This document shows positions 3,050-64,000 of a stretch of DNA of 64,000 bases, in pieces. A program made the translations under genes and the position numbers. Origin of the DNA: an uncultured Gammaproteobacteria bacterium (lineage in GTDB: Bacteria > Patescibacteriota > Microgenomatia > Levybacterales > GWA1-39-11). Every line of letters begins with the position of its first letter. The stretch's first letter is position 1. Under the pieces are notes generated by a model, which worked only from the letters and a program-made list of their open reading frames with translations, was not told the DNA's origin and did no database searches. The DNA is taken from NCBI GenBank assembly GCA_964641355.1, contig CAZXND010000002.1, positions 70,615 to 134,614 on the forward strand, in the 5' to 3' direction.

Positions 3050-3141
3050 ATTTATGCCTAAATTTATAGGTTTATTATTATACTATAAGATAGATATAAA
3101 CTCAATTTATACTTTAGTTTAGCAATTATCATCCAATTAAC

Positions 3142-4833: not shown

Positions 4834-4835
4834 TT

Positions 4836-5159: not shown

Positions 5160-5162
5160 AAA

Positions 5163-50133: not shown

Positions 50134-50971
50134 GAATCTAGTATCAATAATAATACCTACTAAAAATTCTTCATATCTTCTCGGTAACTGTCTAAAAAGT
50201 ATTAGAAACCAAAAATATAAAAAAATTGAAATAATTATTGTTGATGATGGTAAATCCAGAGATATTAACCAAATTAAAGTTTTGACCAAGAAATATAAAT
50301 GTACTTTATTGATTTACGATCCTAAGGTTAAACATGGATTATTTGACGCAACAAAAAAAAGAAATTATGCTGCTAAAAAAATATCTGGTGAGTATATTTA
50401 CCATGTAGATGCAGATATGGAAATGACTAGTAAAGTTATCGCAGAAGCGGTGGATAAATGTAAAAAAGGAGCAGATGCCATAATTATGACCGAAGAATCT
50501 TTTGGTGAAGGGCGGTGGGCTCAAGCAAAAATACTTGAAAGGAGATTTTTTTGGGGCGACAACACAGTTGAATCCCCAAGATTTTTTCTGACCGAGATCT
50601 GGAATGTACTCAAAGGATATGATATTAAAATTGCTGGTGGAGGAGATGATAGAGACATATATCAAAGAGCATTAAAAATGAAGTTTAAAGTTGATAGAAC
50701 AAAAAATTTCGTAATGCATAACGAAGGAAAGTTAAAATTGTTTTATTTAATGAAAAAACAATTCATGTATAAAAGAGAGGTACTGAAGTATGTCAGAAAA
50801 AGGGGGATAGCAAATGGTGTATTGAGTTTTTTTCCTGTCAGAAAGTCACACATTAAAAACTTAGGCATGTTTGTAAAAAATCCGAAAGTTAGTTTTTATT
50901 TTATAATAATGAAGTCCGCAGAGTCAGCAGCTGGTTTGGCTGGTGTTATTTATTCACTTTTTTCTAGTTGA
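50126..50971 (+). CDS. Glycosyltransferase family 2
   Basis: 281 aa. VSIIIPTKNSSYLLGNCLKSI...IIVDDGKS and a DAD-type DxD. Confidence 0.75.
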   Translation: MTKNLVSIIIPTKNSSYLLGNCLKSIRNQKYKKIEIIIVDDGKSRDINQIKVLTKKYKCTLLIYDPKVKHGLFDATKKRNYAAKKISGEYIYHVDADMEMTSKVIAEAVDKCKKGADAIIMTEESFGEGRWAQAKILERRFFWGDNTVESPRFFLTEIWNVLKGYDIKIAGGGDDRDIYQRALKMKFKVDRTKNFVMHNEGKLKLFYLMKKQFMYKREVLKYVRKRGIANGVLSFFPVRKSHIKNLGMFVKNPKVSFYFIIMKSAESAAGLAGVIYSLFSS

Positions 50972-51910
50972 AGTCTTAGAGATATATTTGTTTACTATCT
51001 CCTTCCAAGTCATAAACTCAATCCCCAATTTTTTTTCTGTCTCTCTAGCTCGAAGACCTCCATACTGAGGGTACCTATTTGGAACATTTTCCAAATATTT
51101 TACGATATCTATTCCTACAACATTTGACTTTTTATTTAACTTTTTAAGCAGATACGCCGCCAATTTTTTCGGTGTAAAAAGATCTTTACTTGCAACATGA
51201 AATACTCCCTCAACTTTTTTTTCAATTATTTTGTCTATTGTATTAAAAATCTCAGGAACGTATGTTAAGGTTAAAAACTGGTTTTTAAACATTGGATACA
51301 ACATGTTTTTATCAAATAAAAATTTAATCTTTCCTATATAGTCTAATTTAGGATCATAAATTGGTTGAGTAACATTTCCTATTCTGATAATAGCGGTTAA
51401 TTTTTTTCCCATTAAAAGTTGTTCTGCGTTAGCCTTTGTCCAACCATACCATGAAAGATTAAAAAGATTTAATTCTGGAACGTCCTTTTCTCGATAAGGT
51501 CCTTTGTATTCTTTTATACCCGGAAAAACCATATCGGTAGATATATGGATCAAAAAAATCCCATATTTTTGACTCATTTCTAGTAGGTTCTTAACGCCTA
51601 TGTAATTTGTTTTCCAAGCAGAGCCACTAACATCACCTCTTTGAAACTCTGCTGTATTAGCATCTCTATGAGCGGCAAAGTTGATAATGAAATCGGGGCG
51701 ATACTTTAATATTACATTTTTTAAACTTGTTTTATTAAGAATGTCCAACTTCTTATGACTAAAGGAAATTATTTTAAAATTTTTCTTTTTTGTATAATGC
51801 TTAATAAAGTTTGAACCTATAAAACCTTTGCCTCCTGTAACAAGGAGAGTATTACTGATTTTTTTATTTTTTTTCATTTTCTGACCTCTACAACCAAGTG
51901 AATCTTCCAA
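50954..51910 (-). CDS. SDR-family NAD(P)-dependent sugar nucleotide reductase, RmlD (dTDP-4-dehydrorhamnose reductase)-like
   Basis: 318 aa. LLVTGGKGFIGSNFIKHY. The ...RPDFIINFAAHRDANTAE pattern parallels the RmlD PDxVxNCAAYTAVDxAE region. Confidence 0.55.
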   Translation of the reverse strand: MEDSLGCRGQKMKKNKKISNTLLVTGGKGFIGSNFIKHYTKKKNFKIISFSHKKLDILNKTSLKNVILKYRPDFIINFAAHRDANTAEFQRGDVSGSAWKTNYIGVKNLLEMSQKYGIFLIHISTDMVFPGIKEYKGPYREKDVPELNLFNLSWYGWTKANAEQLLMGKKLTAIIRIGNVTQPIYDPKLDYIGKIKFLFDKNMLYPMFKNQFLTLTYVPEIFNTIDKIIEKKVEGVFHVASKDLFTPKKLAAYLLKKLNKKSNVVGIDIVKYLENVPNRYPQYGGLRARETEKKLGIEFMTWKEIVNKYISKTSTRKK

Positions 51911-52751: not shown

Positions 52752-53696
52752 TTATATATTTCTGTACTGATCTTGAACATCCAAAACCTCCGCAACTCTA
52801 ACCAATTCGTCTATTCCAGCTTCCATAGAAATAGATTTTTTAAATCCCAATTTTTCTAGTTTTTCGTAAGAAACTACATAGTCTCTTTGATCTAAATCCT
52901 TCCCAATCTCTGCGAAATGTAGGTAGTAGTCAACCTTTTTCTTTATCATTAAACAGATATCTTCTTTACTGTAGTTCATTGAATTATCACCCACATTGTA
53001 TATCTGCCCATTCATTTTTTTAAAATTATTAATTGCAAACATAAAAGCCCTTGCCATATCTCTAACATGTATGAAAGTCCTCATAAATTTCTTTTCATAA
53101 ACAATAAGACTTTTATCCTTAACAGCCTTATAGGTAAAATCATTTGGCATCAAATCCAATCTTAGTCTAGGAGAAGTTCCAAAAGCGGTAGCGAACCTAT
53201 AAATAATAAAGTTATTTCTTCTCATAATTAGTTCTTCAGCTTTAGCTTTTTGTAATCCATAGTTTGTCAAGGGGTTTAATGGCGTAGTCTCGGTGCATAT
53301 TTCATCTAGCATTTTCCCGTAAACACTTCCGGTCGAAGCAAAAAAAATAGGCACTTTCCCATCCATACAGGAAAGTAAGTTTTTAGTACCATTTATATTT
53401 ACATCTCTTGATAACTCAGGATATTTTCTACAAGCCGGGAATCCAACTACAGCCGCGAGGTGGATTACCAAATCAATATCTCTTAATGCCTCACGAACAC
53501 TTTTTTTATCCCTAATATCTCCCTTTATAAATTTAAAATTTTTTTCAGAAAAAAACGGAATAAGACTATTGCCACCAAAGACTAATGAGTCAAGAACAGT
53601 AACGTTAAATTTTTTCTTAAGTAGAAGATCGACAACTAAGCTGCCTACAAAACCAGCTCCTCCAGTTACAAGGATGTTATGAAACTTTTTTTTCAT
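52752..53696 (-). CDS. NAD-dependent nucleotide-sugar epimerase/dehydratase (extended SDR)
   Basis: 314 aa. ILVTGGAGFVGSLVVDLLLKK. YGLQKAKAE = YxxxK. Confidence 0.7.
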   Translation of the reverse strand: MKKKFHNILVTGGAGFVGSLVVDLLLKKKFNVTVLDSLVFGGNSLIPFFSEKNFKFIKGDIRDKKSVREALRDIDLVIHLAAVVGFPACRKYPELSRDVNINGTKNLLSCMDGKVPIFFASTGSVYGKMLDEICTETTPLNPLTNYGLQKAKAEELIMRRNNFIIYRFATAFGTSPRLRLDLMPNDFTYKAVKDKSLIVYEKKFMRTFIHVRDMARAFMFAINNFKKMNGQIYNVGDNSMNYSKEDICLMIKKKVDYYLHFAEIGKDLDQRDYVVSYEKLEKLGFKKSISMEAGIDELVRVAEVLDVQDQYRNI

Positions 53697-54504
53697 CGAT
53701 TAAATTAAGATATTTCTCCAAATATTCACTTGAGGATAAAATTGGAAATATTTTATTTATCTTTTCTACGTTCATTTCATAAATTTGTGTTTCGGCATTT
53801 TTCGAAAAATTAATTTTATCTTTAAAATATTTGTTTAACATTGAAAAATTTACAACTCCTCTTCCACCAATATTAAAAACTTCATTTGTTATTTTTTTAT
53901 TTAATAAAGATATAATAATTCTTGCAATATCGTGAGCGGTAATCATCTGGAGTTTAGATTCTTCAGAAATACGTAATGGAAGTTTATTAAAAATATCAAA
54001 AATTGGACCTTTTTTAAGACCAGTCCCCAATATTAAAGACGACCTAAGTATTAGATAACTAGGACAGTTATTTATAACAATTTTTTCACTTAAAAACTTG
54101 TGGAATCCGTATGGAGAAAGCTTTATATTAGAGGGGATACTATCTTCACTATTGACCGCGTTATCTTCATGATTCATATATACATCGCTTGAGGAAATAT
54201 AAATATAAAGGTTATAGTTAAAATCAAATAAAGATTTATAGACTGAAATTGTTGAAGCTTCAAAGTCTCCAATTATATTTTCGTTTGCCCAGAACCGTTT
54301 ACTATTCCCGTTAGCATTAATTATAATTTCAAACGACTTATTAACAAATTTTTTATAATTAGTTTTAGATATGGATGTAACTTCAAATTTTTTACTTAGG
54401 TATGCAACTAGATCCCTCCCCAACATCCCATCTCCACCAATAACAGCAATCTTCTTCAAGATAGTTAATATTTTATAGCTTTTTTGTAGTTCTTTGAGAA
54501 CCAA
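53677..54504 (-). CDS. SDR-like NAD(P)-binding reductase (RmlD-like)
   Basis: 275 aa. IAVIGGDGMLGRDLVAYL Rossmann motif. Length and layout resemble 4-ketoreductases of deoxysugar pathways. Confidence 0.5.
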   Translation of the reverse strand: MVLKELQKSYKILTILKKIAVIGGDGMLGRDLVAYLSKKFEVTSISKTNYKKFVNKSFEIIINANGNSKRFWANENIIGDFEASTISVYKSLFDFNYNLYIYISSSDVYMNHEDNAVNSEDSIPSNIKLSPYGFHKFLSEKIVINNCPSYLILRSSLILGTGLKKGPIFDIFNKLPLRISEESKLQMITAHDIARIIISLLNKKITNEVFNIGGRGVVNFSMLNKYFKDKINFSKNAETQIYEMNVEKINKIFPILSSSEYLEKYLNLIDEKKVS

Positions 54505-55430
54505 ACAACCGTTTCCTTAATTCCCTTGTCTATAGATGTTTTAGGCATCCATTTTAATTCCTTTTTCATTTTTCTTATCCCAAACGTTTTGTGAAGCGCA
54601 CCATCTGGCTTAGATTTATCAAAAACCAATTCCCCATCATATCCTATTGCTTTTTTTATCTTTTTTGCAAGATCTGCAACCGAAATCCCTACTCCAGTAG
54701 CGATATTTAATGGTTCAACATCATTAACTACAGCAGTCGCTCTCAAAATAGCCTCAGCTCCATCTTTAACAAAAAGCCAATCTCTTATTGGTTTCCCACT
54801 CCCCCACACTTCTACATGAGGTAATTTAAATTTTTTAGCTTCGTAGATCTTTTTAATTAGGCCTGCCAATGCCTTACTTTGCTCTGGGTTGAAATGTTCT
54901 CCCGGTCCGTACATATTCGCCATTATAAGATGGATAGAGTTGAAGTCGAATTGCTTTTTAAGCGCTAATCCATAAACAACGGAAGCTTTGCGAGAAAAAC
55001 CATAACTAAAAATACTGTCATGAATTCTTCCACTCCAATACTCATCCTCATTTAACTCTGGGAAATCAACATATCCAGGATAAGAACAGCCAGCAACTAT
55101 GTTTACAAATTTTTTTACCCCTACCTTCCGAGATGCATCCATCAAGTTCAATCCCATTGAAATATTATCCATAAATAGATCAGCTTGCCTTCCATCGTGA
55201 TAACCAATCCCTCCTTGATTTGCTGCACAATTTATCAATATATCCGGCTTTATAGTTTTTAAATATCTTAAACAATTACTTTTTTTTCTAAAGTCTATTC
55301 CCTCACTGGTTTTAGGAATATATATTTTTGCAGAAGACTTAGAGAGAAGACTTGCGATGTGTGAGCCGAAGAAACCTCCTCCACCCGCAATTACTACTTT
55401 CTTGTTATCAAAATAGTCCAGATAACTCAT
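54465..55430 (-). CDS. GDP-L-fucose synthase (Fcl)/GDP-L-colitose synthase (ColC)-family bifunctional 3,5-epimerase-4-reductase
   Basis: 321 aa. KVVIAGGGGFFGSHIASLL. INCAANQGGIGYHDGRQADLFMDNISMGLNLMDASRKVGVKKFVNIVAGCSYP parallels the conserved Fcl core (LxAAKVGGIxANxxxPADFxxxNxxIxxNVIxAA...KLLxLGSSCIYP). Confidence 0.6.
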   Translation of the reverse strand: MSYLDYFDNKKVVIAGGGGFFGSHIASLLSKSSAKIYIPKTSEGIDFRKKSNCLRYLKTIKPDILINCAANQGGIGYHDGRQADLFMDNISMGLNLMDASRKVGVKKFVNIVAGCSYPGYVDFPELNEDEYWSGRIHDSIFSYGFSRKASVVYGLALKKQFDFNSIHLIMANMYGPGEHFNPEQSKALAGLIKKIYEAKKFKLPHVEVWGSGKPIRDWLFVKDGAEAILRATAVVNDVEPLNIATGVGISVADLAKKIKKAIGYDGELVFDKSKPDGALHKTFGIRKMKKELKWMPKTSIDKGIKETVVWFSKNYKKAIKY

Positions 55431-55469
55431 AAATTTGATTTTATATGATAAAGTATAGAATTATACAAG

Positions 55470-56732
55470 TCAACGAGATGAAGAGTTGGAAGTATTTTTT
55501 TTCATCTCATATAATGCATTCAAGTATACGTTATTCCAAGTATTATTTTTGCTAATTTTTTCCGCCTTTGCTGAAAGAGTTTTATATAATTTTTTATCCT
55601 TTAAGACCCTGATAATACCTCTTGAAAAATCATCAATATTATCATTAACAAGAATTCCCGCTCCCTTCTTTACTATAGCACGCCCCAAAGGTGGAACATT
55701 AGTAGAAATAACTGGAAGTCCTGATGCAAGATATTGTCTGATCTTTCCAGCATCGGCGAACCACCTAAAAGATTCTCGAAAAGAACGATAAGGTGCAAGT
55801 CCCACATAGCACTCGCTAACAATATTCGCTACTTCCTCATCGCTCTTAATATAACCATGAAAAAAAACACTGCTCTCTAAGTTTAATCGCTTTACCAACC
55901 TTTTTAGACTCTCTTCATTCGCTCCCGTACCTATAATGTTTAACAACGAGTTGGGAAAAGTCTTTCTTACAACAACAAAAGACCTTACTGCCAATTCCAC
56001 ACCAAACTCCTCATCCAAAGTCCCCACGTATACAAGACTATTAATTTTTCTATCTTTCACGTCTTTTATCTTCATCTGAAAAGGGAATAATCCATTTGGA
56101 ACGTGTAATACACGATTCATATCTAAATCTGTTAAACCTGTTAATTTTCTTCCCTCTCTCATCGCTGTTGATACATCCCATGTAAAATCTGCATTTCTTA
56201 CGCAGAATTTGTCTAACCATATATAGACCTTGTTAAAAAAAGTGTCGCCAAATCTTGTTGGTGAGTAATCGGATACGTAATAAACAACACTTTTAACAAT
56301 TCCTAGTTTTTTTAAAATTATTCCTCCTAAAGTATTTATAGACTCAAGACCAATAAATAAATCGTATTTCTTTCTATATATAGTAGCTAATAAAAAAATT
56401 GAATAAAAATCCCTTAATTTATAAGACACTCTTGTTTTACTAGTGGTTTTAATCTTGCAGAGTAAATAAATCGGCAAATAAAAAAGAGAGGAGATCACAA
56501 ATCTTTCTTTCAATTTTCTTCTATAAAATCTTTCTACGACGGGGTCAATAGTATCGCTTATTACATGAGGCTCATCAAGTAAAATAATCTCCCTTACTTT
56601 TGGTGAAAAAAAACTTATAAGCGGATTTACCATTCCATTTTTTGCCTGCCTCTCTCCTTTTGAGTAGTGAGAAAATGTTGCTATAAAGATAGATGAACTA
56701 CTGTTTATAATCTCTGAATTTCTATTTGTCAT
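55470..56732 (-). CDS. Glycosyltransferase family 4
   Basis: 420 aa. C-terminal GLAPYRSFRESFRWFADAGKIRQYLASGLPVISTNVPPLGRAI. Confidence 0.7.
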   Translation of the reverse strand: MTNRNSEIINSSSSIFIATFSHYSKGERQAKNGMVNPLISFFSPKVREIILLDEPHVISDTIDPVVERFYRRKLKERFVISSLFYLPIYLLCKIKTTSKTRVSYKLRDFYSIFLLATIYRKKYDLFIGLESINTLGGIILKKLGIVKSVVYYVSDYSPTRFGDTFFNKVYIWLDKFCVRNADFTWDVSTAMREGRKLTGLTDLDMNRVLHVPNGLFPFQMKIKDVKDRKINSLVYVGTLDEEFGVELAVRSFVVVRKTFPNSLLNIIGTGANEESLKRLVKRLNLESSVFFHGYIKSDEEVANIVSECYVGLAPYRSFRESFRWFADAGKIRQYLASGLPVISTNVPPLGRAIVKKGAGILVNDNIDDFSRGIIRVLKDKKLYKTLSAKAEKISKNNTWNNVYLNALYEMKKNTSNSSSR

Positions 56733-57273
56733 TTTTTCTTAAACTAGTAATAAAATTGTAGTTAATCTTTGAGAAGTTTTTTACTGCATCGAATATTTCT
56801 TTGTCTTCTTTTTTTTCTACACTATTCGCTAAGTCGCTAAATAATTTTTGATGTTGTCTAGCCGCCAAGTCTATCCGAGCATCTAAGTTTTTAGGAAAAG
56901 CGTATCCAGATAGCAAAGCGCTATTATAATCTTGAACCAGCTTACTATAATAATCTTCTCCTCTCAAAACTGCTTTTTTAGAACCCGATAAATCATTTTT
57001 ACTTCTAAGAATTTTACCGTAATTAATTAATTTATTAGACATTTCCAAATCAAATTCAACCTTCTTGATTTTTGAACTTATCATTCTTTGCGCGATCTTA
57101 TCTCGAAGTATAACAAACTTATTAAGAGGGTCTGTGATAAAATTCGTCGAATCAATAGAATTAGATTTAAGATAAAGGATCTGAATTAATAATATAAATA
57201 AAACAAGAAGTATAGACCATAATAAAATTTTTTCTAAAATTGATAAAAAAACTAAACCTTTATTTTTTTTCAA
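56722..57273 (-). CDS. Hypothetical membrane-anchored protein
   Basis: 183 aa. N-terminal TM LLWSILLVLFILLIQILYL and a helical soluble domain. Unknown family. Confidence 0.35.
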   Translation of the reverse strand: MKKNKGLVFLSILEKILLWSILLVLFILLIQILYLKSNSIDSTNFITDPLNKFVILRDKIAQRMISSKIKKVEFDLEMSNKLINYGKILRSKNDLSGSKKAVLRGEDYYSKLVQDYNSALLSGYAFPKNLDARIDLAARQHQKLFSDLANSVEKKEDKEIFDAVKNFSKINYNFITSLRKNDK

Positions 57274-57620
57274 TTAAAATTTCCTTTCCTATTATTTTCA
57301 AGATTTTGAAAGTTTTTTTTTCTAAATTTAGACAAATTTCATTCAAAAACAATAAAATAAGAATAATTGGATTTTTTGAATTTCTTTTTTTAAACTTAAA
57401 TAAAAAAGTTAAGTCCACTATAAAATTTTTATTTACACTCTTTTTTACTAGCTTTAATAAATAATAGAATAGAATTAGGAAAATTAGTAACTGAAAAGTA
57501 AAAAAAATTCCTGTGTGATAAATTATTAAATCGTCAATAAAATACATATTAAATCTACAGCAACAAGTTTACCACGAGTAATTAGATTCCTCAAATTAGT
57601 GTTTAATTTTACATCCTATT

Positions 57621-58364
57621 ATGCTATCCTCTGTAAATAAAATGAAAACTCCTTACCAAAATTTTTATTCTAAAGTATATCAAAACAAAAATACATTTTT
57701 ATTAGACAAAAAGTGGCAGGAAGTTGTAAAAAAACGCTTAAGTATTCAATATTCTTCGAAAAGAAGAATTTTAGATATAGCATGCGGTGTAAGCACGTTG
57801 GGAATGATATTTGGGAGTAACATTTCAGGCCTAGAAATAAATCCCGAAGCAGTAAAAGTGCTTAGAAAATCGGGTATAAAAGTAAAAAAGGGTGATGTCG
57901 AAAAGAAATGGGACTTTCCAGACAATCACTTCAACATTGTAATAGCATCTCATATAATCGAGCATGTTGTTAATCCAGATCATCTAATCTCGGAGGCAAA
58001 AAGAGTATTAAAGAAAGACGGAATTCTGATAATTGCAACTCCAAATCTCGCCGCATGGTTTAATAGAATATTATTATTGTTGGGTTATCAACCCTTCTTT
58101 ACTGAAGTAAGCACTATTGATAAAACATTGGGTATAAAGTTTACAAGAAGATTAACCAAAAAAAGAGAGCCGCTAGGACATTTAAGGCTATTTACGCAGG
58201 GAGCGCTAAGTGATATTTTAGATCTTCATGGATTCAAAATTATTAAATTTTCCGGAGCAGAATTTTTGGGTTTCCCAAAACCAATAGATAAAGTTGATCA
58301 AATTATGTCAAAGTTTACTCCAATCGCGTCTACTTTCCTTGTATCTTGTAGAAAAAAAAGTTAG
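57621..58364 (+). CDS. Class I SAM-dependent methyltransferase
   Basis: 247 aa. ILDIACGVSTLGMIF motif I and IIASHIIEHV. Confidence 0.7.
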   Translation: MLSSVNKMKTPYQNFYSKVYQNKNTFLLDKKWQEVVKKRLSIQYSSKRRILDIACGVSTLGMIFGSNISGLEINPEAVKVLRKSGIKVKKGDVEKKWDFPDNHFNIVIASHIIEHVVNPDHLISEAKRVLKKDGILIIATPNLAAWFNRILLLLGYQPFFTEVSTIDKTLGIKFTRRLTKKREPLGHLRLFTQGALSDILDLHGFKIIKFSGAEFLGFPKPIDKVDQIMSKFTPIASTFLVSCRKKS

Positions 58365-59422
58365 ATATCAACATTACTTCTCAGAATTTTTATTTTTTTA
58401 ATGATCGTTCTAGCATCTTTTAATTCATACATCGTAATATAAATATTTAAAATACATTTTCTTAAAAACCTCAAAACAGTCGTTGGTGTAAAAATCGTTA
58501 AAAAATAATAAATGCAAAATTTCATACTAAATTTAATTTTAGGATCGAGTACCATAACTCTTTTCGCAATTTGATGTATATTCTCATTTCCAACCATTAT
58601 TTTTATCACCGGAAAGAGAGTTACAAAGTGAAACATTAATTGATTGCGAAGAAATTCCTGATAATATTCATCTTCCACTTTACTCTTTACAATTTCAAAA
58701 AAGTTTTCCGACTTAAGTTTTCCTTTTTTAAGTGAATATAGTGGGTGATGACCCACGCTATCATTCCTCCACTGAGACCAATGAGCAATAATAAATTGAT
58801 TTTTTAGGAATAGTCCTCCAAACTTTTTTGTTGAATAATACAGAAGATCTATCCATGGAGCTGGATCAGCATATACCACTTGTACATTTTTTGATAAATC
58901 ATTTTTTATAATAAGACCCGTCATAAAAAAAGGATCAGAATTAAGTATAAAAGAGAATACATCCTCTGAACTCCTATTCGCATTAAAATAATAATCATTT
59001 TCAAATGGTTTATTTACTTTGAAATTGAAAATCTTTTTTTCATCAGGAGACAGACATGTGTAATTTACTCTTACAAAGCCTGGACTATTTTTAATGATTT
59101 TTTTATGTATTTTATAAAGAGCTCCTGCATCTAAAAAAAAGTCGTCATCTGAATGGAGAAGAATATATTTTCCACTTGCATGCCCCATGACTTCCTTAAC
59201 GTTCAGACTGAAATCTATATTCGATTTATTTCTAAAATATCTTATCCTATTATCTTTTATGCTGAGCACCATCTTTTTCGTTTCATCTGTGGAAAAGTTA
59301 TCTGAAATAATTATTTCAAAGTCTTTAAAATTTTGCCTGCGAAGGCAGTAAATCGCGAATCTTAAATCTTTTACCCTATTAAAAGTAGGAATTACGATTG
59401 AAAAAAATGGTCTTTCTTTCAT
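58361..59422 (-). CDS. Glycosyltransferase family 2
   Basis: 353 aa. FSIVIPTFNRVKDLRFAIYCLRRQNFKDFEIIISDNFSTDET. Confidence 0.75.
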   Translation of the reverse strand: MKERPFFSIVIPTFNRVKDLRFAIYCLRRQNFKDFEIIISDNFSTDETKKMVLSIKDNRIRYFRNKSNIDFSLNVKEVMGHASGKYILLHSDDDFFLDAGALYKIHKKIIKNSPGFVRVNYTCLSPDEKKIFNFKVNKPFENDYYFNANRSSEDVFSFILNSDPFFMTGLIIKNDLSKNVQVVYADPAPWIDLLYYSTKKFGGLFLKNQFIIAHWSQWRNDSVGHHPLYSLKKGKLKSENFFEIVKSKVEDEYYQEFLRNQLMFHFVTLFPVIKIMVGNENIHQIAKRVMVLDPKIKFSMKFCIYYFLTIFTPTTVLRFLRKCILNIYITMYELKDARTIIKKIKILRSNVDI

Positions 59423-59493
59423 TGTTTACACAATATATCTCAATAGCTAAGATTGTCGAATAACATATGTAAATTCATTTAAAATTAATTTTC

Positions 59494-60726
59494 TTGATAT
59501 GCTATACTATCGCAAATATGCTTCGAGTTCCATACGCACTTTCTGTTTACGATAACAAAGAAATACAAGCGGTTGTTTCTGTACTTAAAGAACACAGATC
59601 TAACATGGGTATTGAGACTCAGAAGTTTGAGAAGGGAGTTGCAAAACTTTTTAATAAAAAATATGGAATAATGGTTAATTCTGGGTCTTCAGCAATACTT
59701 ATTGCATTAGAACTATTAAATCTCCCTAAAGGTTCTGAAATCATTACGCCGATTTTGACTTTCTCAACTACGGTTGCACCCATTGTTCAAAAAGGATTAA
59801 TTCCTGTTTTTGCAGACGTTGAGCCACAAAAATACACCATTAACGTTGATCAGGTTGAGTCTCTTATTACACCAAAAACTAAAGCACTATTTATTCCTTT
59901 ACTACTCGGAAATGTTCCTGCCTTGGATAGACTTAGAAAAATTGCAAAAAAACATAAGCTTTATTTTGTTGAAGATTCTTGTGATACCTTAGGAGCTAAA
60001 TACAATGGAAAAGAATCAGGATCATATTCAGACATATCTATAACTAGTTTTTTTGGATCTCATATTATCACTGCGGGAGGCAATGGAGGAATGATAATGG
60101 TAAACAGTAGAAAGTGGGCAGATAGGGCAAAAGTACTAAGAGGCTGGGGGAGAAGTTCGTCTTTATTTGGTGAGACCGAAGATATTAAAAAGCGTTTTAG
60201 TGTAAAGCTAGAAAATATACCTTATGATGCAAAATTTCTATTTGAAGAAGTAGGATACAATCTTCTTCCAAATGAAATGTGTTCAGCGTTTGGGAATATG
60301 CAGTTACTGAAACTTCCTAAATTTAGAAAGATAAGGGAAAAGAATTTTAATACACTTTATAAATTTTTTCAAAAATATGAATCCGTATTTATGCTCCCCA
60401 AGCAAGATAAAAAAGTTTCAACACAGTGGATTACTTTTCCTTTAACTATCAGAAACACCTCCCCTTTCACACGAATTGAATTGGTTACTTTCCTAGAAAA
60501 TAATAACATTCAAACTCGTCCAATTTTTACGGGAAATATATTAAAACAACCAGGTTTTAAAGATATCAATCACAGAAAAAATTCATCCGGATATCCGGCA
60601 ACTCAAGAAGTAATGGAGAGAGGATTTGTAATAGGATGTCACCATGGTCTTGAAAATAAACACATAGACAGGCTTACTGAGGTATTCTCGCTCTTTTTGA
60701 AAAGCAAAGGAGTTAAGAGTAGTTAG
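59494..60726 (+). CDS. PLP-dependent nucleotide-sugar 3-dehydratase of the DegT/DnrJ/EryC1 fold, ColD (GDP-4-keto-6-deoxymannose 3-dehydratase)/E1-like
   Basis: 410 aa. The active-site segment ITSFFGSHIITAGGNGGM has His where aminotransferases of this fold carry the PLP-binding Lys (SFxxxK). It closely parallels the E. coli ColD SFYSHHIATMEGG region as I recall it. N-terminus YGIMVNSGSSAILIALELL and C-terminus IQTRPIFTGNILKQ also resemble ColD. Confidence 0.75.
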   Translation: MICYTIANMLRVPYALSVYDNKEIQAVVSVLKEHRSNMGIETQKFEKGVAKLFNKKYGIMVNSGSSAILIALELLNLPKGSEIITPILTFSTTVAPIVQKGLIPVFADVEPQKYTINVDQVESLITPKTKALFIPLLLGNVPALDRLRKIAKKHKLYFVEDSCDTLGAKYNGKESGSYSDISITSFFGSHIITAGGNGGMIMVNSRKWADRAKVLRGWGRSSSLFGETEDIKKRFSVKLENIPYDAKFLFEEVGYNLLPNEMCSAFGNMQLLKLPKFRKIREKNFNTLYKFFQKYESVFMLPKQDKKVSTQWITFPLTIRNTSPFTRIELVTFLENNNIQTRPIFTGNILKQPGFKDINHRKNSSGYPATQEVMERGFVIGCHHGLENKHIDRLTEVFSLFLKSKGVKSS

Positions 60727-61693
60727 TTTTATTGGCATAAAACCAATCAACTGTTCTTTTAATCCCCTCCTCCAATGAATAATTCGGTTTCCATTTCAGA
60801 ATTTTTTTAGTATGAGATAAATCTGCTTCGAGCATTTGAGGTTCTAGATACCTTGCCTGCCTCTTCACGCCACCCCATACAACCTTTGACTTACTGTTAG
60901 TAGTTTTAAGAATAGTCTCGACGATATCCTTTATAGTATTTTGCTTTCCTGACCCAATATTAAAAATTGAACCATTAGGCACTTTAATCATTGTAGCTTG
61001 GATATAAGCATTAATCACATCCTCAATAAAAATAAAATCCCTAACACTTTGAGGCGTTGAAACTTTTATCGGCCTATCTTGAAGAACGTCTAATATTATT
61101 GATGGAATAAGTCTATACCCACTTTCATAATTCCCATAAGGGGTAAAAAGACGTAAAGTGATAATCGGCAGATTGCTTCTAATTGCTTCCTTTTTGCAAT
61201 AAAGTGAAACAGCTGACTTCACAACAGAATAATTATTTGTTGGTTCGAGATAATCTGTCTCCCTCATTTTATTTTTTTTACTTCCATATTCAAAACAACT
61301 TCCAGTATTAATAAATAGTTTAAAATCAATTTTTTTTGCCGCTTCAATTATATTGATAGTCCCTTTTAAGTTTACATCTATCATTTTATAGATATCATCT
61401 TCATGAGGTGGGATCCCATATGATGCTAAGTGAAAAATATAATCAGGATTACTTTTTTTTAACGCAAGAAAAATTGATTTATCCAAAAGGTTACCTTCAA
61501 AAATTCTAACTTTCGATTTAACTCCATTCAATCTCCAATTGAGATTTCTATCTCTAACAAAGATACTCACGTCTTCTCCCCTATTTACCAATTGGTGAGT
61601 AATATTACTTCCCACAAAACCAGTTGCTCCGGTAATAAAATATTTATTTCTCATACTGGAATAATGGCCAATTTGAATCTTTCTCTGAAACAA
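60713..61693 (-). CDS. NDP-sugar 4,6-dehydratase-like extended SDR (GDP-mannose or GDP-heptose 4,6-dehydratase candidate)
   Basis: 326 aa. KYFITGATGFVGSNITHQLVNRGEDVSIFVRD resembles the GMD-type N-terminus. TGSCFEYGS (S/T...E) and YSVVK (YxxxK) catalytic motifs. Confidence 0.55.
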   Translation of the reverse strand: MFQRKIQIGHYSSMRNKYFITGATGFVGSNITHQLVNRGEDVSIFVRDRNLNWRLNGVKSKVRIFEGNLLDKSIFLALKKSNPDYIFHLASYGIPPHEDDIYKMIDVNLKGTINIIEAAKKIDFKLFINTGSCFEYGSKKNKMRETDYLEPTNNYSVVKSAVSLYCKKEAIRSNLPIITLRLFTPYGNYESGYRLIPSIILDVLQDRPIKVSTPQSVRDFIFIEDVINAYIQATMIKVPNGSIFNIGSGKQNTIKDIVETILKTTNSKSKVVWGGVKRQARYLEPQMLEADLSHTKKILKWKPNYSLEEGIKRTVDWFYANKTNYS

Positions 61694-62183
61694 CTACGTT
61701 TTTCTTAATAGGCCAATCTATGTTAAAAAATGGATCATTCCATTTAAAACCTCTTTCATGTTTTGGAGAATAAAATGCTGAAACAGGATACTCAACTATT
61801 GAGTTATCCTCAAGCGCTTGAGCCCCATGAGCAACACCTTTTGGAACTAAAACCATAGTTTTACTTTTAGCGGATAAAACGTTTCCTACCCATTTACCAA
61901 AAGTTTTAGACTTAGGTCTAACATCTAACGCAACATCAAAAATAGAACCTTTTACACACTGTACTAATTTATCTTCTGATTTAGGTGGAACCTGCATATG
62001 AAGCCCTCTGATTGTTCCTGCCTTAATAGACATAGATCTGTTAATTTGAACTATTTCAAAATTAATTCCAAACTTTTTAAGCTCTTCAACATCATAAACT
62101 CTTTCAAAGTAACCTCTCTTATCGCTTTTACTTTCTATCTCAATTAAAAATACTCCATCAATTACAGTTTTACTAAATTTCAT
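61644..62183 (-). CDS. Cupin-fold NDP-sugar 3,5-epimerase (RmlC-like)
   Basis: 179 aa. KSDKRGYFERVYD...GTIRGLHMQVPPKSEDKLVQCVKGSIFDVALDVR matches the RmlC core (RGxF..., GLHxQ, KLVxCxxGxIxDVxVDxR). Confidence 0.8.
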   Translation of the reverse strand: MKFSKTVIDGVFLIEIESKSDKRGYFERVYDVEELKKFGINFEIVQINRSMSIKAGTIRGLHMQVPPKSEDKLVQCVKGSIFDVALDVRPKSKTFGKWVGNVLSAKSKTMVLVPKGVAHGAQALEDNSIVEYPVSAFYSPKHERGFKWNDPFFNIDWPIKKNVVVSEKDSNWPLFQYEK

Positions 62184-62191
62184 GGTGGGAG

Positions 62192-62866
62192 TTAACGAAA
62201 TGGAACCGCTTTGTTTTCATTAATGTCATTTTCCATCTCATCGTGTAAGTGCTTTGTTTTAGCAATCCATGCAGCGATTATATGATTCAGTATAAGCTGT
62301 ATATCTTCAACTGGTCCATAATGATTACTGTCTGCAATTAAAGGGTAATCTACTATTCCCCCAAGCTTACCACCAGTTTTAAATCCTAAGATACCAACAG
62401 TTATTGCATTGCATGATTTTGCATACTCAATCGCCTTAACAACATTAGGACTATTTCCACTCCCAGAAAGAGCAATAACAACATCATCCCTTTTTACCAA
62501 ATTTCTAAGTTGCTGTACAAATATATCGTCGAAGCTTAAATCGTTTCCAAAAGCTGTCATAATAGCAACATTATCTGTAAGGGAAATAACTTGAAATCTT
62601 CTTTCAGAATTATCATAAATTCTCCTAAGGGTTCCTTTTCCTAAATCGCATGCCATGTGAGAAGCTGTAGACGCACTTCCTCCATTACCTATTATAAATA
62701 CCTTTTTATCTTTTTTATAAGCCGTAACAAGCACATTCATTATCTCTGCAATTATACTTTTATCTATAGATAAAAGACACCTTACAATTTCGAAAATATA
62801 TGAATTAATAAAGTCAGAGGGGTCTAAACTAATATTTTTTTTATTTTCTACGTTTCTATTCTTCAT
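62192..62866 (-). CDS. gmhA: Sedoheptulose-7-phosphate isomerase (phosphoheptose isomerase, SIS domain)
   Basis: 224 aa. KVFIIGNGGSASTASHMACDL and VVIALSGSGNSPNVVKAIEYAK match the GmhA core (GNGGS...S-S-GNS). Confidence 0.85.
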   Translation of the reverse strand: MKNRNVENKKNISLDPSDFINSYIFEIVRCLLSIDKSIIAEIMNVLVTAYKKDKKVFIIGNGGSASTASHMACDLGKGTLRRIYDNSERRFQVISLTDNVAIMTAFGNDLSFDDIFVQQLRNLVKRDDVVIALSGSGNSPNVVKAIEYAKSCNAITVGILGFKTGGKLGGIVDYPLIADSNHYGPVEDIQLILNHIIAAWIAKTKHLHDEMENDINENKAVPFR

Positions 62867-63846
62867 TAATCAATAAATACTATTTTACTTCCCTGGGGTT
62901 CAAAGGAAAACTTTTGATAAATTAATTCTGGTAAAGCTTTAATAATTTTTTTATGCTTATCTTCTGGGGCATAAAATAAAAGAAATCCACCACCACCTGC
63001 ACCTAACAACTTCCCACCAATCGCACCACTTCTTATTGCTCTACTATACCAACTATTAATTTGTTCACTTGTGATTCCGTCTGCCATTTTTACTTTTAAA
63101 AACCAATTTTCATCAAGCATTTTACCAAAAGTGTCTAGGTTGTTAGTATTTAACGCTTTTTGCATTTTTTTTGCAATACCTACCATTCTTAACATAGTTT
63201 TTCTTTTTTTTTCAAAAGATGCCATCTCTTTTGATTGTTTACTTAAAATAGGATCTGAAGATCTTGTTATTCCCGTATAGAAAAGGAGTAGTCTTTTTTC
63301 TAATTTTTCTCTTGTTTCATCGGTACATATAATTGGATCTACAAAAACACTACCATTTTTATTAAATTGTAAGTATTGCATTCCTCCGTATGCAGCAATG
63401 TACTGATCTTGCTTTCCTATGGGCTTTTTTAATATATCTATCTCTATTTTACACGCCTCACGGGCAAGTCTTTCAGCACTCACATACTCACCTTTAAAGG
63501 CATAAAGAGCATTTAATAGCCCGACAACATAAGAACTTGACGATCCCATACCTGTTCCCTCCGACGGAACATCAGCAATAGAACTAATATGAATACCTTT
63601 TCTTATTCCCGTTAACTTTAAAGCTTCTCGTACTAAGTCGTTTTGAATCTCTGAGACCTTTGTAACCAACTCTGTTTTTGAATAATGAATAAAAATTCTT
63701 CCATCAAACTGTTTTTCAACAAATATATAAATATACTTATCAATTGCTGTTGTTACAACGCATCCAGAAGAATGTTTATAAAAAGAGGAAATATCACTTC
63801 CACCTCCAACAAAACTTACCCTCAGGGGAGTTCTTGATATGATCAT
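62866..63846 (-). CDS. hddA: D-glycero-alpha-D-manno-heptose 7-phosphate kinase (GHMP kinase family)
   Basis: 326 aa. MIISRTPLRVSFVGGGSDI N-terminus and GHMP motif PSEGTGMGSSSS. Directly adjacent to gmhA and gmhB. Confidence 0.75.
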   Translation of the reverse strand: MIISRTPLRVSFVGGGSDISSFYKHSSGCVVTTAIDKYIYIFVEKQFDGRIFIHYSKTELVTKVSEIQNDLVREALKLTGIRKGIHISSIADVPSEGTGMGSSSSYVVGLLNALYAFKGEYVSAERLAREACKIEIDILKKPIGKQDQYIAAYGGMQYLQFNKNGSVFVDPIICTDETREKLEKRLLLFYTGITRSSDPILSKQSKEMASFEKKRKTMLRMVGIAKKMQKALNTNNLDTFGKMLDENWFLKVKMADGITSEQINSWYSRAIRSGAIGGKLLGAGGGGFLLFYAPEDKHKKIIKALPELIYQKFSFEPQGSKIVFID

Positions 63847-64000
63847 AAGTATTTGGAAACAATCGAATATAAGTCGTTTTTTTTATTCACCAAAAATGTT
63901 TTACATCCAGCTTTTTTCCCGGAAATAATATCACGTTCGTCATCACCTATACAACAACTTTTATATAAATCGATGTTATATTTTTGCGCCGCCTGGAAAA
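63843..64000 (-). CDS. gmhB: D,D-heptose 1,7-bisphosphate phosphatase (HAD family), C-terminal part. The gene continues beyond the window end.
   Basis: Reverse translation gives ...FQAAQKYNIDLYKSCCIGDDERDIISGKKAGCKTFLVNKKN..., a HAD motif-IV region as in GmhB. Its TGA stop overlaps the hddA ATG (ATGA). Confidence 0.55.
   Translation of the reverse strand, partial: FQAAQKYNIDLYKSCCIGDDERDIISGKKAGCKTFLVNKKNDLYSIVSKYL

What the first reader, a model, noticed from the sequence alone, without database searches (positions are those of the whole stretch)
54465..64000. Nucleotide-sugar module combining GDP-heptose synthesis genes with a ColD-type 3-dehydratase: predicted 3,6-dideoxy sugar (colitose-like or 3,6-dideoxyheptose) pathway
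Contiguous genes: gmhB (partial), hddA, gmhA, an RmlC-like cupin 3,5-epimerase, a GMD-like 4,6-dehydratase SDR, and a PLP enzyme whose active-site Lys is replaced by His (SFFGSHIITAGG), the hallmark of ColD/E1 3-dehydratases rather than aminotransferases. Nearby are an Fcl/ColC-like epimerase-reductase (54465..55430) and two RmlD-like reductases (50954..51910, 53677..54504). A ManC-like guanylyltransferase lies at 17925..18998. ManC + GMD + ColD + ColC is the complete GDP-L-colitose route. With GmhA/HddA/GmhB feeding GDP-D-glycero-D-manno-heptose, the same enzyme set would instead give GDP-6-deoxy- or 3,6-dideoxy-heptoses, as described for Campylobacter capsules. Either product would be a first for a CPR-like, AT-rich reduced genome. 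The cluster is complete enough to reconstitute in vitro.
Basis: partly seen in the sequence, partly recalled or inferred. Interest (0 to 1): 0.65.

Follow-up and report, generated by a model that had tools for sequence, protein, structure and literature searches.

The report
Heptose operon with unusual sugar 3-dehydratase
A candidate-phyla-radiation-type bacterium carries a nucleotide-heptose operon ending next to an uncharacterised, iron-sulfur-free relative of the sugar 3-dehydratase E1, so it probably makes a 3,6-dideoxy sugar by a known kind of pathway using a non-standard enzyme.

Summary
The genes are real, and the PLP enzyme (59518..60726) carries His at the catalytic-Lys position. Three details are wrong.

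1. The enzyme is not ColD-type by descent. It is closest to E1/RfbH, lacks all three loop cysteines of E1's [2Fe-2S] motif, and no E3-like reductase lies within 86 kb. It belongs to a large uncharacterised clade that should work ColD-style.
2. The SDR at 60713..61693 lacks dehydratase residues and is probably the C4-reductase. The GMD-family dehydratase candidate lies just beyond the window end.
3. The "partial gmhB" is the tail of an HddC-GmhB fusion.

Relatives of the PLP enzyme usually sit beside CDP-glucose genes. The window's enzyme falls in a subclade where these are replaced by heptose genes plus the GMD-like gene.

A genuine ColD-like/ColC-like pair lies about 9-11 kb outside the window.

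Best reading (about 0.45): GDP-heptose, then 4,6-dehydration, E3-independent C3-deoxygenation, C5-epimerisation and C4-reduction, giving a 3,6-dideoxyheptose as in Campylobacter jejuni, but with a non-orthologous dehydratase. The nucleotide and the substrate remain inferred.

The parts
63846..64000 (-). C-terminal 51 codons of a 395-aa HddC-GmhB fusion (heptose-1-P nucleotidyltransferase + heptose-1,7-bisphosphate phosphatase). The rest lies beyond the window end.
   Evidence: L001 8817-10004 is 100% identical to the window in the overlap. HAD domain: NF006506 GmhB 157 bits (cutoff 178). N-domain best PDB hits: WcbM/HddC 4y7t and 5xhw, plus GDP-mannose pyrophosphorylases. Its stop overlaps the hddA start (ATGA).
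62866..63846 (-). HddA-like GHMP kinase (D-glycero-D-manno-heptose 7-phosphate kinase)
   Evidence: Best NCBIfam model is NF049969 HddA, 151 bits, far below the cutoff of 600. The top four PDB hits are all heptose-phosphate kinases: 3k85, 4n3o, 4usm and 4usk.
62192..62866 (-). GmhA-like sedoheptulose-7-phosphate isomerase (SIS domain)
   Evidence: TIGR00441 gmhA is the best model, 101 bits (cutoff 209). Twelve of the 15 PDB hits listed are phosphoheptose isomerases, 1tk9 best; the others are DiaA (2yva, 4u6n) and a 'putative' phosphoheptose isomerase (1x94).
61644..62183 (-). RmlC-type cupin epimerase, the predicted C5 (or C3/C5) epimerase of the 4-keto intermediate
   Evidence: TIGR01221 184.6 bits, above the cutoff of 155.75. 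PF00908 203 bits. Best PDB hits are dTDP-4-dehydrorhamnose 3,5-epimerases. The GLH and KLV motifs are conserved in the alignment.
60713..61654 (-). Extended SDR (313 aa by database gene calls; the ORF extends to 61693). Predicted NAD(P)H-dependent C4-ketoreductase, not a 4,6-dehydratase.
   Evidence: It has a YxxxK motif. The motif GSCFEYG aligns with SSDKAY/TSDKCY of CDP-glucose dehydratases but lacks D-K. There is no family-specific match. Homologues at 48-65% identity accompany the PLP gene in both heptose and CDP-glucose contexts.
59518..60726 (+). His-type PMP/PLP sugar 3-dehydratase of an iron-sulfur-free, E1-related clade (ORF from TTG 59494; 402 aa from ATG 59518). It is convergent with the SDR and overlaps it by 14 bp.
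   Evidence: PF01041 271 bits. NF011936 RfbH 345 bits, below the cutoff of 423. E1 3bcx scores 3e-68 and ColD 2gms 1.4e-48. The His aligns with E1 H220. The E1 loop [21 protein letters not shown] reads RGWGRSSSLFGETEDIKKRF here. All 120 closest homologues share the His and the Cys-free loop. The AF2 model (pLDDT 82.6) matches E1 best by fold.
58361..59422 (-). GT2 glycosyltransferase, divergent from the PLP gene. Candidate transferase for the product sugar.
   Evidence: PF00535 77 bits. The trio MT247(+)/GT2(-)/PLP(+) recurs in L006, L020, L026, L027, L029, L030, L033 and L034.
57621..58364 (+). SAM-dependent methyltransferase, part of the conserved trio
   Evidence: Methyltransf_23/11/31. Synteny.
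55470..56732 (-). GT1-type (GT4-like) glycosyltransferase
   Evidence: PF00534 75.8 bits. Syntenic in L020, L026 and L033.
54465..55430 (-). Fcl-family (GDP-sugar) SDR with a non-canonical active site
   Evidence: NF047922 207 bits (cutoff 500). All top PDB hits are GDP-fucose synthases or GDP-heptose reductases (7ll6, 1e6u, 7m13). In the alignment Ser107->Ala, Lys140->Arg and His179->Lys, while Cys109 and Tyr136 are kept.
52752..53696 (-). Extended SDR (GalE/RmlB-like) of unknown specificity, in the conserved block
   Evidence: The motif STGSVYG has no dehydratase acid/base.
50954..51910 (-). RmlD-like reductase in the conserved block
   Evidence: PF04321 130 bits. TIGR01214 118 bits (cutoff 224).
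17925..18998 (-). ManC-like mannose-1-phosphate guanylyltransferase (no PMI domain), next to the priming sugar transferase. The only other NTP-transferase in the locus.
   Evidence: TIGR01479 229.6 bits, matching positions 3-350 of the 467-position profile. PF00483 plus the ManC beta-helix.

Best explanation
The window's end is the 3' part of a long same-strand glycan operon. Just outside the window this operon encodes a GMD-family 4,6-dehydratase candidate and an HddC-GmhB fusion. Inside it encodes HddA, GmhA, an RmlC-type epimerase and an SDR reductase. A convergent gene encodes a His-type PMP enzyme.

Proposed route:
1. [quoted passage not shown]
2. The GMD-like enzyme makes the 6-deoxy-4-keto-heptose.
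3. The PMP enzyme forms a ketimine at C4. Its active-site His abstracts the PMP C4' proton and the C3-OH is expelled.
4. The enzyme has no [2Fe-2S] site and no E3 partner. The enamine is therefore hydrolysed to the 3,6-dideoxy-4-keto sugar plus ammonia, and PMP is regenerated from PLP with an amino donor such as L-glutamate. This is ColD chemistry on an E1-like scaffold.
5. The cupin epimerises C5 and the SDR reduces C4, giving a 3,6-dideoxyheptose. The adjacent GT2 transfers it.

Shown: gene identities at family level, the His substitution, the absence of Fe-S cysteines, the operon layout, and the conserved synteny.

Inferred: every substrate, the nucleotide, the order of steps, and the product stereochemistry.
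For: - Heptose module: each of the four activities has heptose-pathway enzymes as best hits.
- The genes abut or overlap on one strand.
- The SDR upstream of hddC-gmhB has as best PDB hits only GDP-sugar enzymes: RMD 2pk3 at 1.4e-58, the C. jejuni GDP-heptose 4,6-dehydratase 7us5 at 3.8e-48, then GMDs. TIGR01472 gmd is its top model. It shares the 'RW..NIxH' segment and 'NHxGPRR' with the dehydratases, not with RMD.
- PLP enzyme: His at the Lys position, a Ser-His dyad as in ColD, no loop cysteines, only 3 Cys in total, and no Fer2/FNR-type ORF in the window or L001. No reductase-type Pfam domain appears in the 22 kb beyond.
- No RfbF or RfbG lies anywhere in the 64 kb window plus 22 kb beyond it.
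- In a neighbour-joining tree the window's enzyme groups with L020, L022, L026/27, L033/34 and L021/24. Every member with enough flank has heptose genes (plus the GMD-like gene where the flank reaches), and none has RfbF/G. Sister lineages have RfbF/G.
- The SDR326 homologue follows the PLP gene in both contexts.
- Precedent: C. jejuni makes GDP-3,6-dideoxyheptoses with a 4,6-dehydratase, a PLP C3-dehydratase, a cupin C5-epimerase and a C4-reductase (PMC10440746).
- Clade function: Legionella/Tatlockia members (53%) sit with bona fide RfbF and/or RfbG (both in L018 and L019; in L014 a 69% RfbF homologue beside the PLP gene and a 43% RfbG-like gene elsewhere in the locus) and a YerE-like ThDP enzyme. 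Yersiniose A, which needs a 3,6-dideoxy-4-keto intermediate, is known in L. micdadei and L. maceachernii.
Against: - The clade's usual partners are CDP-glucose-type genes: 36 loci with only those, against 9 other loci (10 counting the window) with heptose genes and no RfbF/G. A switch to a GDP-heptose substrate is therefore required.
- Only two conservative subclade-specific substitutions were found, L313I and A314T.
- Heptose modules also co-occur with RfbF/G loci, where they probably just supply heptose (L031, L073, L079, L081).
- The GMD-like protein's single best PDB hit is a reductase (RMD), so its dehydratase role rests on motifs.
- A genuine ColD-like enzyme with a canonical Fcl/ColC-like neighbour lies in the same operon about 9-11 kb outside the window. 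It could be the enzyme that acts on GDP-sugars.
- The cupin is closest to dTDP-type RmlC, not to GDP-heptose epimerases.
- All heptose-enzyme scores are below NCBIfam equivalog cutoffs.
- No biochemical data exist for any member of this clade.
Confidence: 0.45

Rival explanations
1. The PLP enzyme keeps the clade's ancestral job. It deoxygenates C3 of CDP- (or another NDP-) 4-keto-6-deoxy-D-glucose, supplied by RfbF/RfbG-type genes elsewhere in the genome. SDR326 then reduces the product to a 3,6-dideoxyhexose. The heptose operon independently supplies a heptose or a 6-deoxyheptose.
For: - Most relatives (58-73% identical) are adjacent to RfbF-like and RfbG-like genes (TIGR02623 249-273 bits, TIGR02622 about 213 bits). 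Legionella relatives are adjacent to bona fide RfbF/RfbG.
- Several loci carry both modules side by side (L031, L073, L079, L081).
- There is almost no subclade-specific sequence change in the enzyme.
Against: - No RfbF or RfbG lies within 86 kb, in a locus that otherwise concentrates the glycan genes.
- No other locus of the subclade carries RfbF/G, though flanks reach only 3-10 kb and three of its contigs are too short to tell. L026 and L033 carry the GMD-like gene instead.
- The only dehydratase-type SDR near the PLP gene is GDP-family.
Confidence: 0.2
2. This is a GDP-hexose route, colitose-like. ManC makes GDP-mannose and the GMD-like enzyme dehydrates it. The in-window PLP enzyme removes the C3-OH, and an Fcl-family enzyme or RmlC+SDR326 finishes a 3,6-dideoxyhexose. 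The heptose genes give a plain or 6-deoxy heptose.
For: - ManC-like gene at 17925..18998.
- GMD-family enzyme in the operon.
- Fcl-family SDR at 54465..55430, whose PDB neighbours are all GDP-sugar enzymes.
- From my own recollection, not checked here: known heptose 4,6-dehydratases also accept GDP-mannose.
Against: - ManC is 41 kb away from the PLP gene (about 46 kb from the GMD-like gene), beside the priming transferase.
- The GMD-like gene is the gene immediately upstream of hddC-gmhB.
- The in-window Fcl-like protein lacks 3 of 5 Fcl catalytic residues.
- A proper ColD-like/ColC-like pair outside the window is the more natural colitose module.
Confidence: 0.15
3. The PLP enzyme is not a dehydratase here. 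It acts as a 4-aminotransferase or is catalytically degenerate, and the operon makes only 6-deoxyheptose (GMD-like + RmlC + SDR326).
For: - SpnQ can transaminate without a reductase (PMC8987622).
- GMD-like + cupin + reductase alone is a complete 6-deoxyheptose route, as in C. jejuni.
Against: - The His and the preceding Ser are conserved in all 120 closest homologues, at 64-77% identity.
- No wild-type His-type enzyme other than SpnQ transaminates.
- Lys is absent.
- Co-occurrence with ThDP and C-methyl branching enzymes in relatives fits a 3-deoxy-4-keto product.
Confidence: 0.07

Closest known systems
E1 / RfbH / DdhC / AscC (CDP-6-deoxy-L-threo-D-glycero-4-hexulose 3-dehydrase, Yersinia pseudotuberculosis; PDB 3bcx)
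   Same: It is the closest sequence and fold: 36% identity, 233 bits, TM 0.84, with the RfbH model as top hit. His sits at the Lys position. Relatives lie beside RfbF and RfbG.
   Different: The three loop cysteines of the C-X57-C-X-C-X7-C [2Fe-2S] motif are missing. No E3 reductase gene is present. The score is below the RfbH equivalog cutoff (345 < 423). In this locus there are no CDP-glucose genes.
ColD / WbdK (GDP-4-keto-6-deoxy-D-mannose 3-dehydratase, E. coli O55; PDB 2gms) and the C. jejuni HS:5/HS:11 C3-dehydratases
   Same: It has a Ser-His catalytic dyad, no Fe-S cluster and no reductase partner. The predicted chemistry is the same: hydrolytic release with amino-donor regeneration of PMP. 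The C. jejuni enzymes act on GDP-6-deoxy-4-keto-heptose in an equivalent four-enzyme pathway (PMC10440746).
   Different: It is only 32% identical to ColD and is not its orthologue. The C. jejuni enzymes are 62-67% identical to ColD. The real ColD-like gene of this genome is a different gene, about 10-11 kb beyond the window end.
[quoted passage not shown]
   Same: All four activities plus a GMD-family SDR are encoded contiguously on one strand. Best hits are the characterised heptose enzymes.
   Different: HddC and GmhB are fused into one 395-aa protein. All scores are below the equivalog cutoffs. The nucleotide used is untested.
Yersiniose-type branched 3,6-dideoxy sugar pathways (E1/E3 + YerE/YerF)
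   Same: Relatives of the PLP enzyme in Legionella/Tatlockia sit with RfbF and/or RfbG (both in L018 and L019) and a YerE-like ThDP enzyme. CPR relatives sit with split-transketolase-like or C-methyltransferase genes.
   Different: The window itself has no branching enzyme between the PLP gene and the reductase. It has an RmlC-type epimerase instead.

Membership tests
ColD (GDP-4-keto-6-deoxymannose 3-dehydratase) | His replaces the PLP-binding Lys, preceded by Ser (S187-H188) | tested here: met
   G-S-H190 in SFFGSHIIT. It aligns with the ColD H188/H189 pair and with E1 H220. PDB entry 3gr9 is the ColD S187N/H188K mutant.
ColD (GDP-4-keto-6-deoxymannose 3-dehydratase) | No iron-sulfur cluster and no reductase partner | tested here: met
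   The loop is Cys-free and the protein has only 3 Cys. No Fer2/FNR ORF is present. Actual metal content is not testable here.
ColD (GDP-4-keto-6-deoxymannose 3-dehydratase) | Orthology: ColD is the nearest characterised relative | tested here: not met
   E1 scores higher than ColD by sequence (233.7 vs 169 bits), by profile (RfbH is the top NCBIfam model) and by fold (TM 0.84 vs 0.78). A different gene outside the window is ColD-like.
ColD (GDP-4-keto-6-deoxymannose 3-dehydratase) | Acts on a GDP-4-keto-6-deoxy sugar, with PMP regenerated by L-glutamate | not testable with these tools
   Context gives only a GMD-family gene in the operon. Relatives sit with CDP-glucose-type genes.
E1 / RfbH (CDP-4-keto-6-deoxyglucose 3-dehydrase) | [2Fe-2S] motif C-X57-C-X-C-X7-C | tested here: not met
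   [21 protein letters not shown] in E1 corresponds to RGWGRSSSLFGETEDIKKRF here. The same holds in all 120 closest homologues.
E1 / RfbH (CDP-4-keto-6-deoxyglucose 3-dehydrase) | E3 (AscD/RfbI) flavin/Fe-S reductase partner encoded nearby | tested here: not met
   No such ORF is in the window or L001 by motif scan. No such Pfam domain is present among the window ORFs scanned (about 50 of the larger ones; six small ORFs were covered only by the motif scan) or in the gene calls for the 22 kb beyond. None was among the Legionella-locus ORFs scanned.
E1 / RfbH (CDP-4-keto-6-deoxyglucose 3-dehydrase) | Passes the curated RfbH equivalog threshold | tested here: not met
   NF011936 scores 345.2 bits against a cutoff of 423.
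E1 / RfbH (CDP-4-keto-6-deoxyglucose 3-dehydrase) | Clustered with glucose-1-P cytidylyltransferase and CDP-glucose 4,6-dehydratase | tested here: not met
   Both are absent from the 64 kb window plus 22 kb beyond. The feature is met in many relatives.
[quoted passage not shown] | All four enzyme families present and contiguous | tested here: met
   All are below NCBIfam equivalog cutoffs, so the assignment is at family plus context level.
[quoted passage not shown] | The nucleotidyltransferase uses GTP | not testable with these tools
   The best matches are guanylyltransferases (WcbM 4y7t; man1P_GTase 116 bits; HddC 94 bits), but G1P cytidylyltransferase also scores 85 bits.
C. jejuni-type GDP-3,6-dideoxyheptose pathway (PMC10440746) | GDP-heptose 4,6-dehydratase | tested here: inconclusive
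   The GMD-family SDR outside the window hits 7us5 at 3.8e-48 and has S-x-E and NHxGPRR. Its top PDB hit, however, is the reductase RMD 2pk3.
C. jejuni-type GDP-3,6-dideoxyheptose pathway (PMC10440746) | ColD-orthologous C3-dehydratase (62-67% identical to ColD) | tested here: not met
   The window enzyme is 32% identical to ColD.
C. jejuni-type GDP-3,6-dideoxyheptose pathway (PMC10440746) | RmlC-fold C5-epimerase and an NADPH C4-reductase next to the dehydratase | tested here: met
   The cupin passes TIGR01221. SDR326 has YxxxK and no dehydratase residues. Both are adjacent. SDR326 is not of the Fcl-like family used in C. jejuni.
GDP-L-colitose pathway (ManC, GMD, ColD, ColC) | ColC: Fcl-family 5-epimerase/4-reductase with Ser-Tyr-Lys plus Cys/His | tested here: not met
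   In the in-window Fcl-like protein (54465..55430), Ser->Ala, Lys->Arg and His->Lys. A canonical one, SDR335, lies outside the window next to the ColD-like gene.

The most novel reading that the evidence does not exclude
The window's enzyme represents a fourth, so far uncharacterised class of nucleotide-sugar 3-dehydratase. It has an E1 scaffold that never had, or has lost, the [2Fe-2S] cluster, and it works hydrolytically like ColD. The class is widespread: at least 55 of the 150 nearest 50%-identity cluster representatives belong to it.

In one CPR sublineage this enzyme has been re-plumbed from CDP-hexose to GDP-heptose substrates. The organism would then make a 3,6-dideoxyheptose alongside a colitose-like sugar from a separate ColD/ColC pair. 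That would be two independent C3-deoxygenation systems in one reduced genome.
Probability: 0.35. Interest if true: 0.65.

Novelty: new variant of a known kind. Interest (0 to 1): 0.5.

Why it matters
Only three kinds of nucleotide-sugar 3-dehydratase have been characterised: E1, ColD and SpnQ (PMC8987622). E1 and SpnQ need an Fe-S cluster and electron donors; ColD does not.

A large natural clade with E1 ancestry but no cluster would be the missing comparison for how C3-deoxygenation evolved between the two mechanisms. It would also be a reductase-free catalyst for making 3,6-dideoxy sugars.

For CPR/Patescibacteria biology, a glycan locus of more than 70 kb rich in deoxy, branched and heptose sugars points to an elaborate surface glycan in organisms whose envelope chemistry is essentially unknown.

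The pathway logic itself is already known from Campylobacter, so the advance would be incremental rather than conceptual.

Tried and rejected
- The promoter/terminator scan of 57200..64000 was uninformative: 39 sites against 33.6 expected.
- The search for subclade-specific residues that might mark a CDP-to-GDP switch gave only L313I and A314T, so there was no usable signal.
- The genome-contig scan returned only 14 loci and not the source genome, so the organism is inferred from relatives labelled Patescibacteria and from DUF4012.
I worked around this through cluster-member ids.
- The King et al. 2009 GMD/RMD paper was not held. The claim that a conserved Arg distinguishes GMD from RMD therefore rests on my recollection plus the motif comparison.
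- I considered an alternative metal site formed by the conserved C163 and C382-H383-H384.
- I considered the SDRs at 52752..53696, 34036..35064 and L101 10001..10942 as the missing 4,6-dehydratase. I rejected them because all lack the acid/base residues.
- The literature searches for Patescibacteria with heptose or dideoxy sugars found only a KEGG-level mention of ADP-heptose in Paceibacteria. The search on Fe-S and 3-dehydrases led to a 2022 review listing only E1, ColD and SpnQ.

Full report
**Observation**

Family scans and solved-structure searches confirm most labels.

- 62866..63846 is an HddA-like GHMP kinase. HddA is the best NCBIfam model, and the top PDB hits 3k85, 4n3o and 4usk are all heptose-phosphate kinases.
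- 62192..62866 is a GmhA-like SIS isomerase.
- 61644..62183 is an RmlC-type cupin that passes the TIGR01221 cutoff.
- 59494..60726 is a DegT-family enzyme (PF01041, 271 bits).

In the HMMER alignment to E1 (PDB 3bcx), the His of SFFGSHIITAGG lies on His220. That is the residue changed in the H220K mutant 3bb8. In a multiple alignment it lies on the His188/His189 pair of ColD. The central observation, Lys replaced by His, therefore holds. Database gene calls start this gene at 59518 (402 aa).

**Corrections**

The window ends inside a gene. A Logan contig, 100% identical to the window over 11,135 bases, continues the sequence.

- The "partial gmhB" is the C-terminus of a 395-aa fusion of an NTP-transferase domain and a GmhB-type HAD phosphatase. 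The NTP-transferase domain's best PDB hits are the heptose-1-P guanylyltransferases WcbM 4y7t and HddC 5xhw, plus GDP-mannose pyrophosphorylases.
- Immediately upstream of the fusion is a 329-aa SDR. Its best NCBIfam model is GMD. Its 14 best PDB hits are all GDP-sugar enzymes, including the C. jejuni GDP-heptose 4,6-dehydratase 7us5 (3.8e-48). It carries S-x-E and NHEGPRR motifs and the "RW..NIxH" segment of the dehydratases. Its single best hit, however, is the reductase RMD 2pk3.
In alignment it has C-F where CDP-glucose dehydratases have D-K, so it is more plausibly the terminal C4-ketoreductase.
- The Fcl-like gene at 54465..55430 is a GDP-sugar-family SDR, but Ser107, Lys140 and His179 of Fcl are Ala, Arg and Lys.

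**What the PLP enzyme is**

It is closer to E1/RfbH than to ColD by three measures:

- sequence: 233.7 against 169 bits;
- profile: the RfbH model is the top hit at 345 bits, below its cutoff of 423;
- fold: the AF2 model (pLDDT 82.6) gives TM 0.84 to E1 and 0.78 to ColD.

It is 36% identical to E1 and 32% to ColD.

The E1 loop that supplies three of the four [2Fe-2S] ligands reads [21 protein letters not shown]. Here it reads RGWGRSSSLFGETEDIKKRF. The protein has only three cysteines.

All 120 closest database homologues (64-77% identity) share the His and the Cys-free loop. Among the 150 nearest 50%-identity cluster representatives, at least 55 are His-type with a Cys-free loop, against 32 with a classical Cys-rich loop.

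No ferredoxin- or FNR-type ORF is present in the window or the first extension. No such domain appears in the gene calls for the 22 kb beyond.

A 2022 review lists only E1, ColD and SpnQ as characterised 3-dehydratases. E1 and SpnQ are cluster-dependent and ColD is hydrolytic (PMC8987622). The window's enzyme is thus an uncharacterised E1-like, cluster-free type that should work like ColD. It also has ColD's Ser-His dyad.

**Context of relatives**

I collected 14 genome loci and 80 metagenome loci and classified all their ORFs against a reference set.

- The commonest neighbours are an RfbF-like nucleotidyltransferase and an RfbG-like dehydratase. These score 249-273 and about 213 bits on the CDP-glucose models in CPR. 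In the Legionella loci L018/L019 they are 65-100% identical to the L019 pair, which clears the cutoffs at 445 and 506 bits; L014 has a 69% RfbF homologue but only a 43% RfbG-like gene.
- They often come with a homologue of the window's SDR (48-58%) and a split-transketolase-like or C-methyltransferase gene.
- In Legionella/Tatlockia a YerE-like ThDP enzyme is present. Yersiniose A is a known LPS sugar of L. micdadei and L. maceachernii (reference cited in PMC7867332). This fits the clade making 3,6-dideoxy-4-keto intermediates without E3.
- Thirty-six loci show only CDP-glucose-type genes. Nine other loci (ten counting the window) show heptose genes without them, and five show both.

In a neighbour-joining tree the window groups with L020, L022, L026/27, L033/34 and L021/24. 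Every member of that subclade with enough flank has the heptose genes (plus the GMD-like gene where the flank reaches), and none has RfbF/G.

The block RmlD-like, MT, SDR, SDR, Fcl-like, GT1, MT, GT2, PLP, SDR326, (RmlC), GmhA, HddA, HddC, with the GMD-like gene further along, is syntenic across these loci. No RfbF or RfbG exists in the window or in 22 kb beyond it.

**A second dehydratase outside the window**

About 10-11 kb beyond the window end, on the same strand as the heptose operon, lies a 390-aa DegT protein. It is ColD-like: ColD 2gms scores 1.3e-62 against E1 at 4e-38, and it carries TFSFYVGHHLSTIEGG and VRAHGWDRNL.

It is flanked by an RfbG-derived SDR without dehydratase residues and by a canonical Fcl/ColC-like SDR with all five catalytic residues. 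A cupin, a C-methyltransferase, a UXS-like SDR, a GFO-type oxidoreductase and three glycosyltransferases follow, leading up to the GMD-like gene.

The locus therefore encodes two different His-type 3-dehydratases and two nucleotide-sugar supply lines: the ManC-like gene at 17925..18998 and the heptose module.

**Most likely mechanism**

1. [quoted passage not shown]
2. The GMD-like enzyme forms the 6-deoxy-4-keto-heptose.
3. The cluster-free E1-like PMP enzyme removes the C3-OH, ColD-style.
4. The cupin epimerises C5.
5. SDR326 reduces C4.
6. The neighbouring GT2 transfers the 3,6-dideoxyheptose.

This mirrors the C. jejuni HS:5/HS:11 pathway (PMC10440746), but with a non-orthologous dehydratase and reductase.

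I put this at about 0.45. The uncertain step is the substrate of the PLP enzyme:

- its lineage normally partners CDP-glucose genes;
- only two conservative substitutions mark the heptose-associated subclade;
- the ColD-like enzyme could be the one serving GDP-sugars.

The rivals are a CDP-hexose route with distant supply genes (0.2), a GDP-hexose colitose-like route (0.15), and a non-dehydratase role (0.07).

**Novelty and verdict**

The pathway type is known. The heptose module, apart from the HddC-GmhB fusion, is ordinary. CPR genomes commonly carry such loci, and ADP-heptose synthesis has already been noted in Paceibacteria (PMC9166423).

What is new is the enzyme class and its apparent recruitment into a heptose operon. 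The finding is best filed as a new variant of a known kind and is of moderate interest. It is testable directly with four recombinant proteins.

Noticed in passing
Beyond the window end; L101 10001-13129 (window-equivalent about 72852-75980, - strand): A second His-type DegT enzyme sits in the same long operon. It is genuinely ColD-like (ColD 2gms 1.3e-62; motif SFYVGHH). It is flanked by an RfbG-derived SDR that lacks dehydratase residues and by a canonical Fcl/ColC-like SDR. L086 carries a 68%-identical copy next to its E1-like gene.
   Followed up: partly
window 63846-64000 plus L001 8817-10004: HddC (nucleotidyltransferase) and GmhB (phosphatase) are fused into one 395-aa protein. The fusion recurs in related CPR loci.
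   Followed up: partly
L007, L023, L025, L028, L029 (CPR); L014, L018, L019 (Legionella/Tatlockia): Relatives of the PLP gene are followed by split-transketolase-like genes or C-methyltransferases in CPR. In Legionellaceae they are followed by a YerE-like ThDP enzyme, plus radical-SAM genes in L018. This suggests branched-chain 3,6-dideoxy sugars made without E3. Yersiniose A is known in L. micdadei and L. maceachernii.
   Followed up: partly
window 54465-55430: An Fcl-family SDR has Ala, Arg and Lys in place of Fcl Ser107, Lys140 and His179. Cys109 and Tyr136 are kept. Homologues at 68-73% identity occur in L020, L026 and L033, but whether they share the three substitutions was not checked. 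The Cys/Lys pair recalls GDP-mannose 3,5-epimerase.
   Followed up: partly
window about 59133-59140 (in the GT2 gene 58361-59422, - strand): A poly-T tract reads T8 here. It reads T9 in an otherwise near-identical contig from another sample (L002), which splits the GT2 gene into 103-aa and 262-aa ORFs. This is either a possible phase-variable tract or an assembly error.
   Followed up: partly
window 24828-27980, 35095-37128, 37115-40765, 43441-45852, 45842-48139: Five large ORFs (677-1216 aa) lie inside the glycan locus with no Pfam match. At least 45842-48139 is visibly rich in hydrophobic segments. They are possibly novel GT-C-type transferases, polymerases or surface proteins.
   Followed up: no
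window 15200-17191 and 17263-17901: A DUF4012 protein sits next to a Bac_transf priming sugar transferase at the start of the glycan locus. With the flippase (Wzx-like) at L101 5949-7268, the locus runs from about 15 kb in the window to more than 22 kb beyond it, which is over 70 kb in total.
   Followed up: no
window 8720-10399 (+): An OLD-family ATPase/TOPRIM nuclease (AAA_15, AAA_21, OLD-like TOPRIM) lies between housekeeping genes. It is a likely defence gene.
   Followed up: no
window 387-6068: This is the cell-wall/division (dcw) gene set: two Mur ligases, a PBP transpeptidase and MraW. A class II aminoacyl-tRNA synthetase follows at 7253-8566. The organism therefore makes peptidoglycan.
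   Followed up: no
L006 3770-4435: By reading its N-terminal sequence only (the Pfam scan that included it failed), a 221-aa ORF that looks like a transaldolase or fructose-6-P aldolase sits inside the heptose module of a related locus. It may supply sedoheptulose-7-P locally.
   Followed up: no
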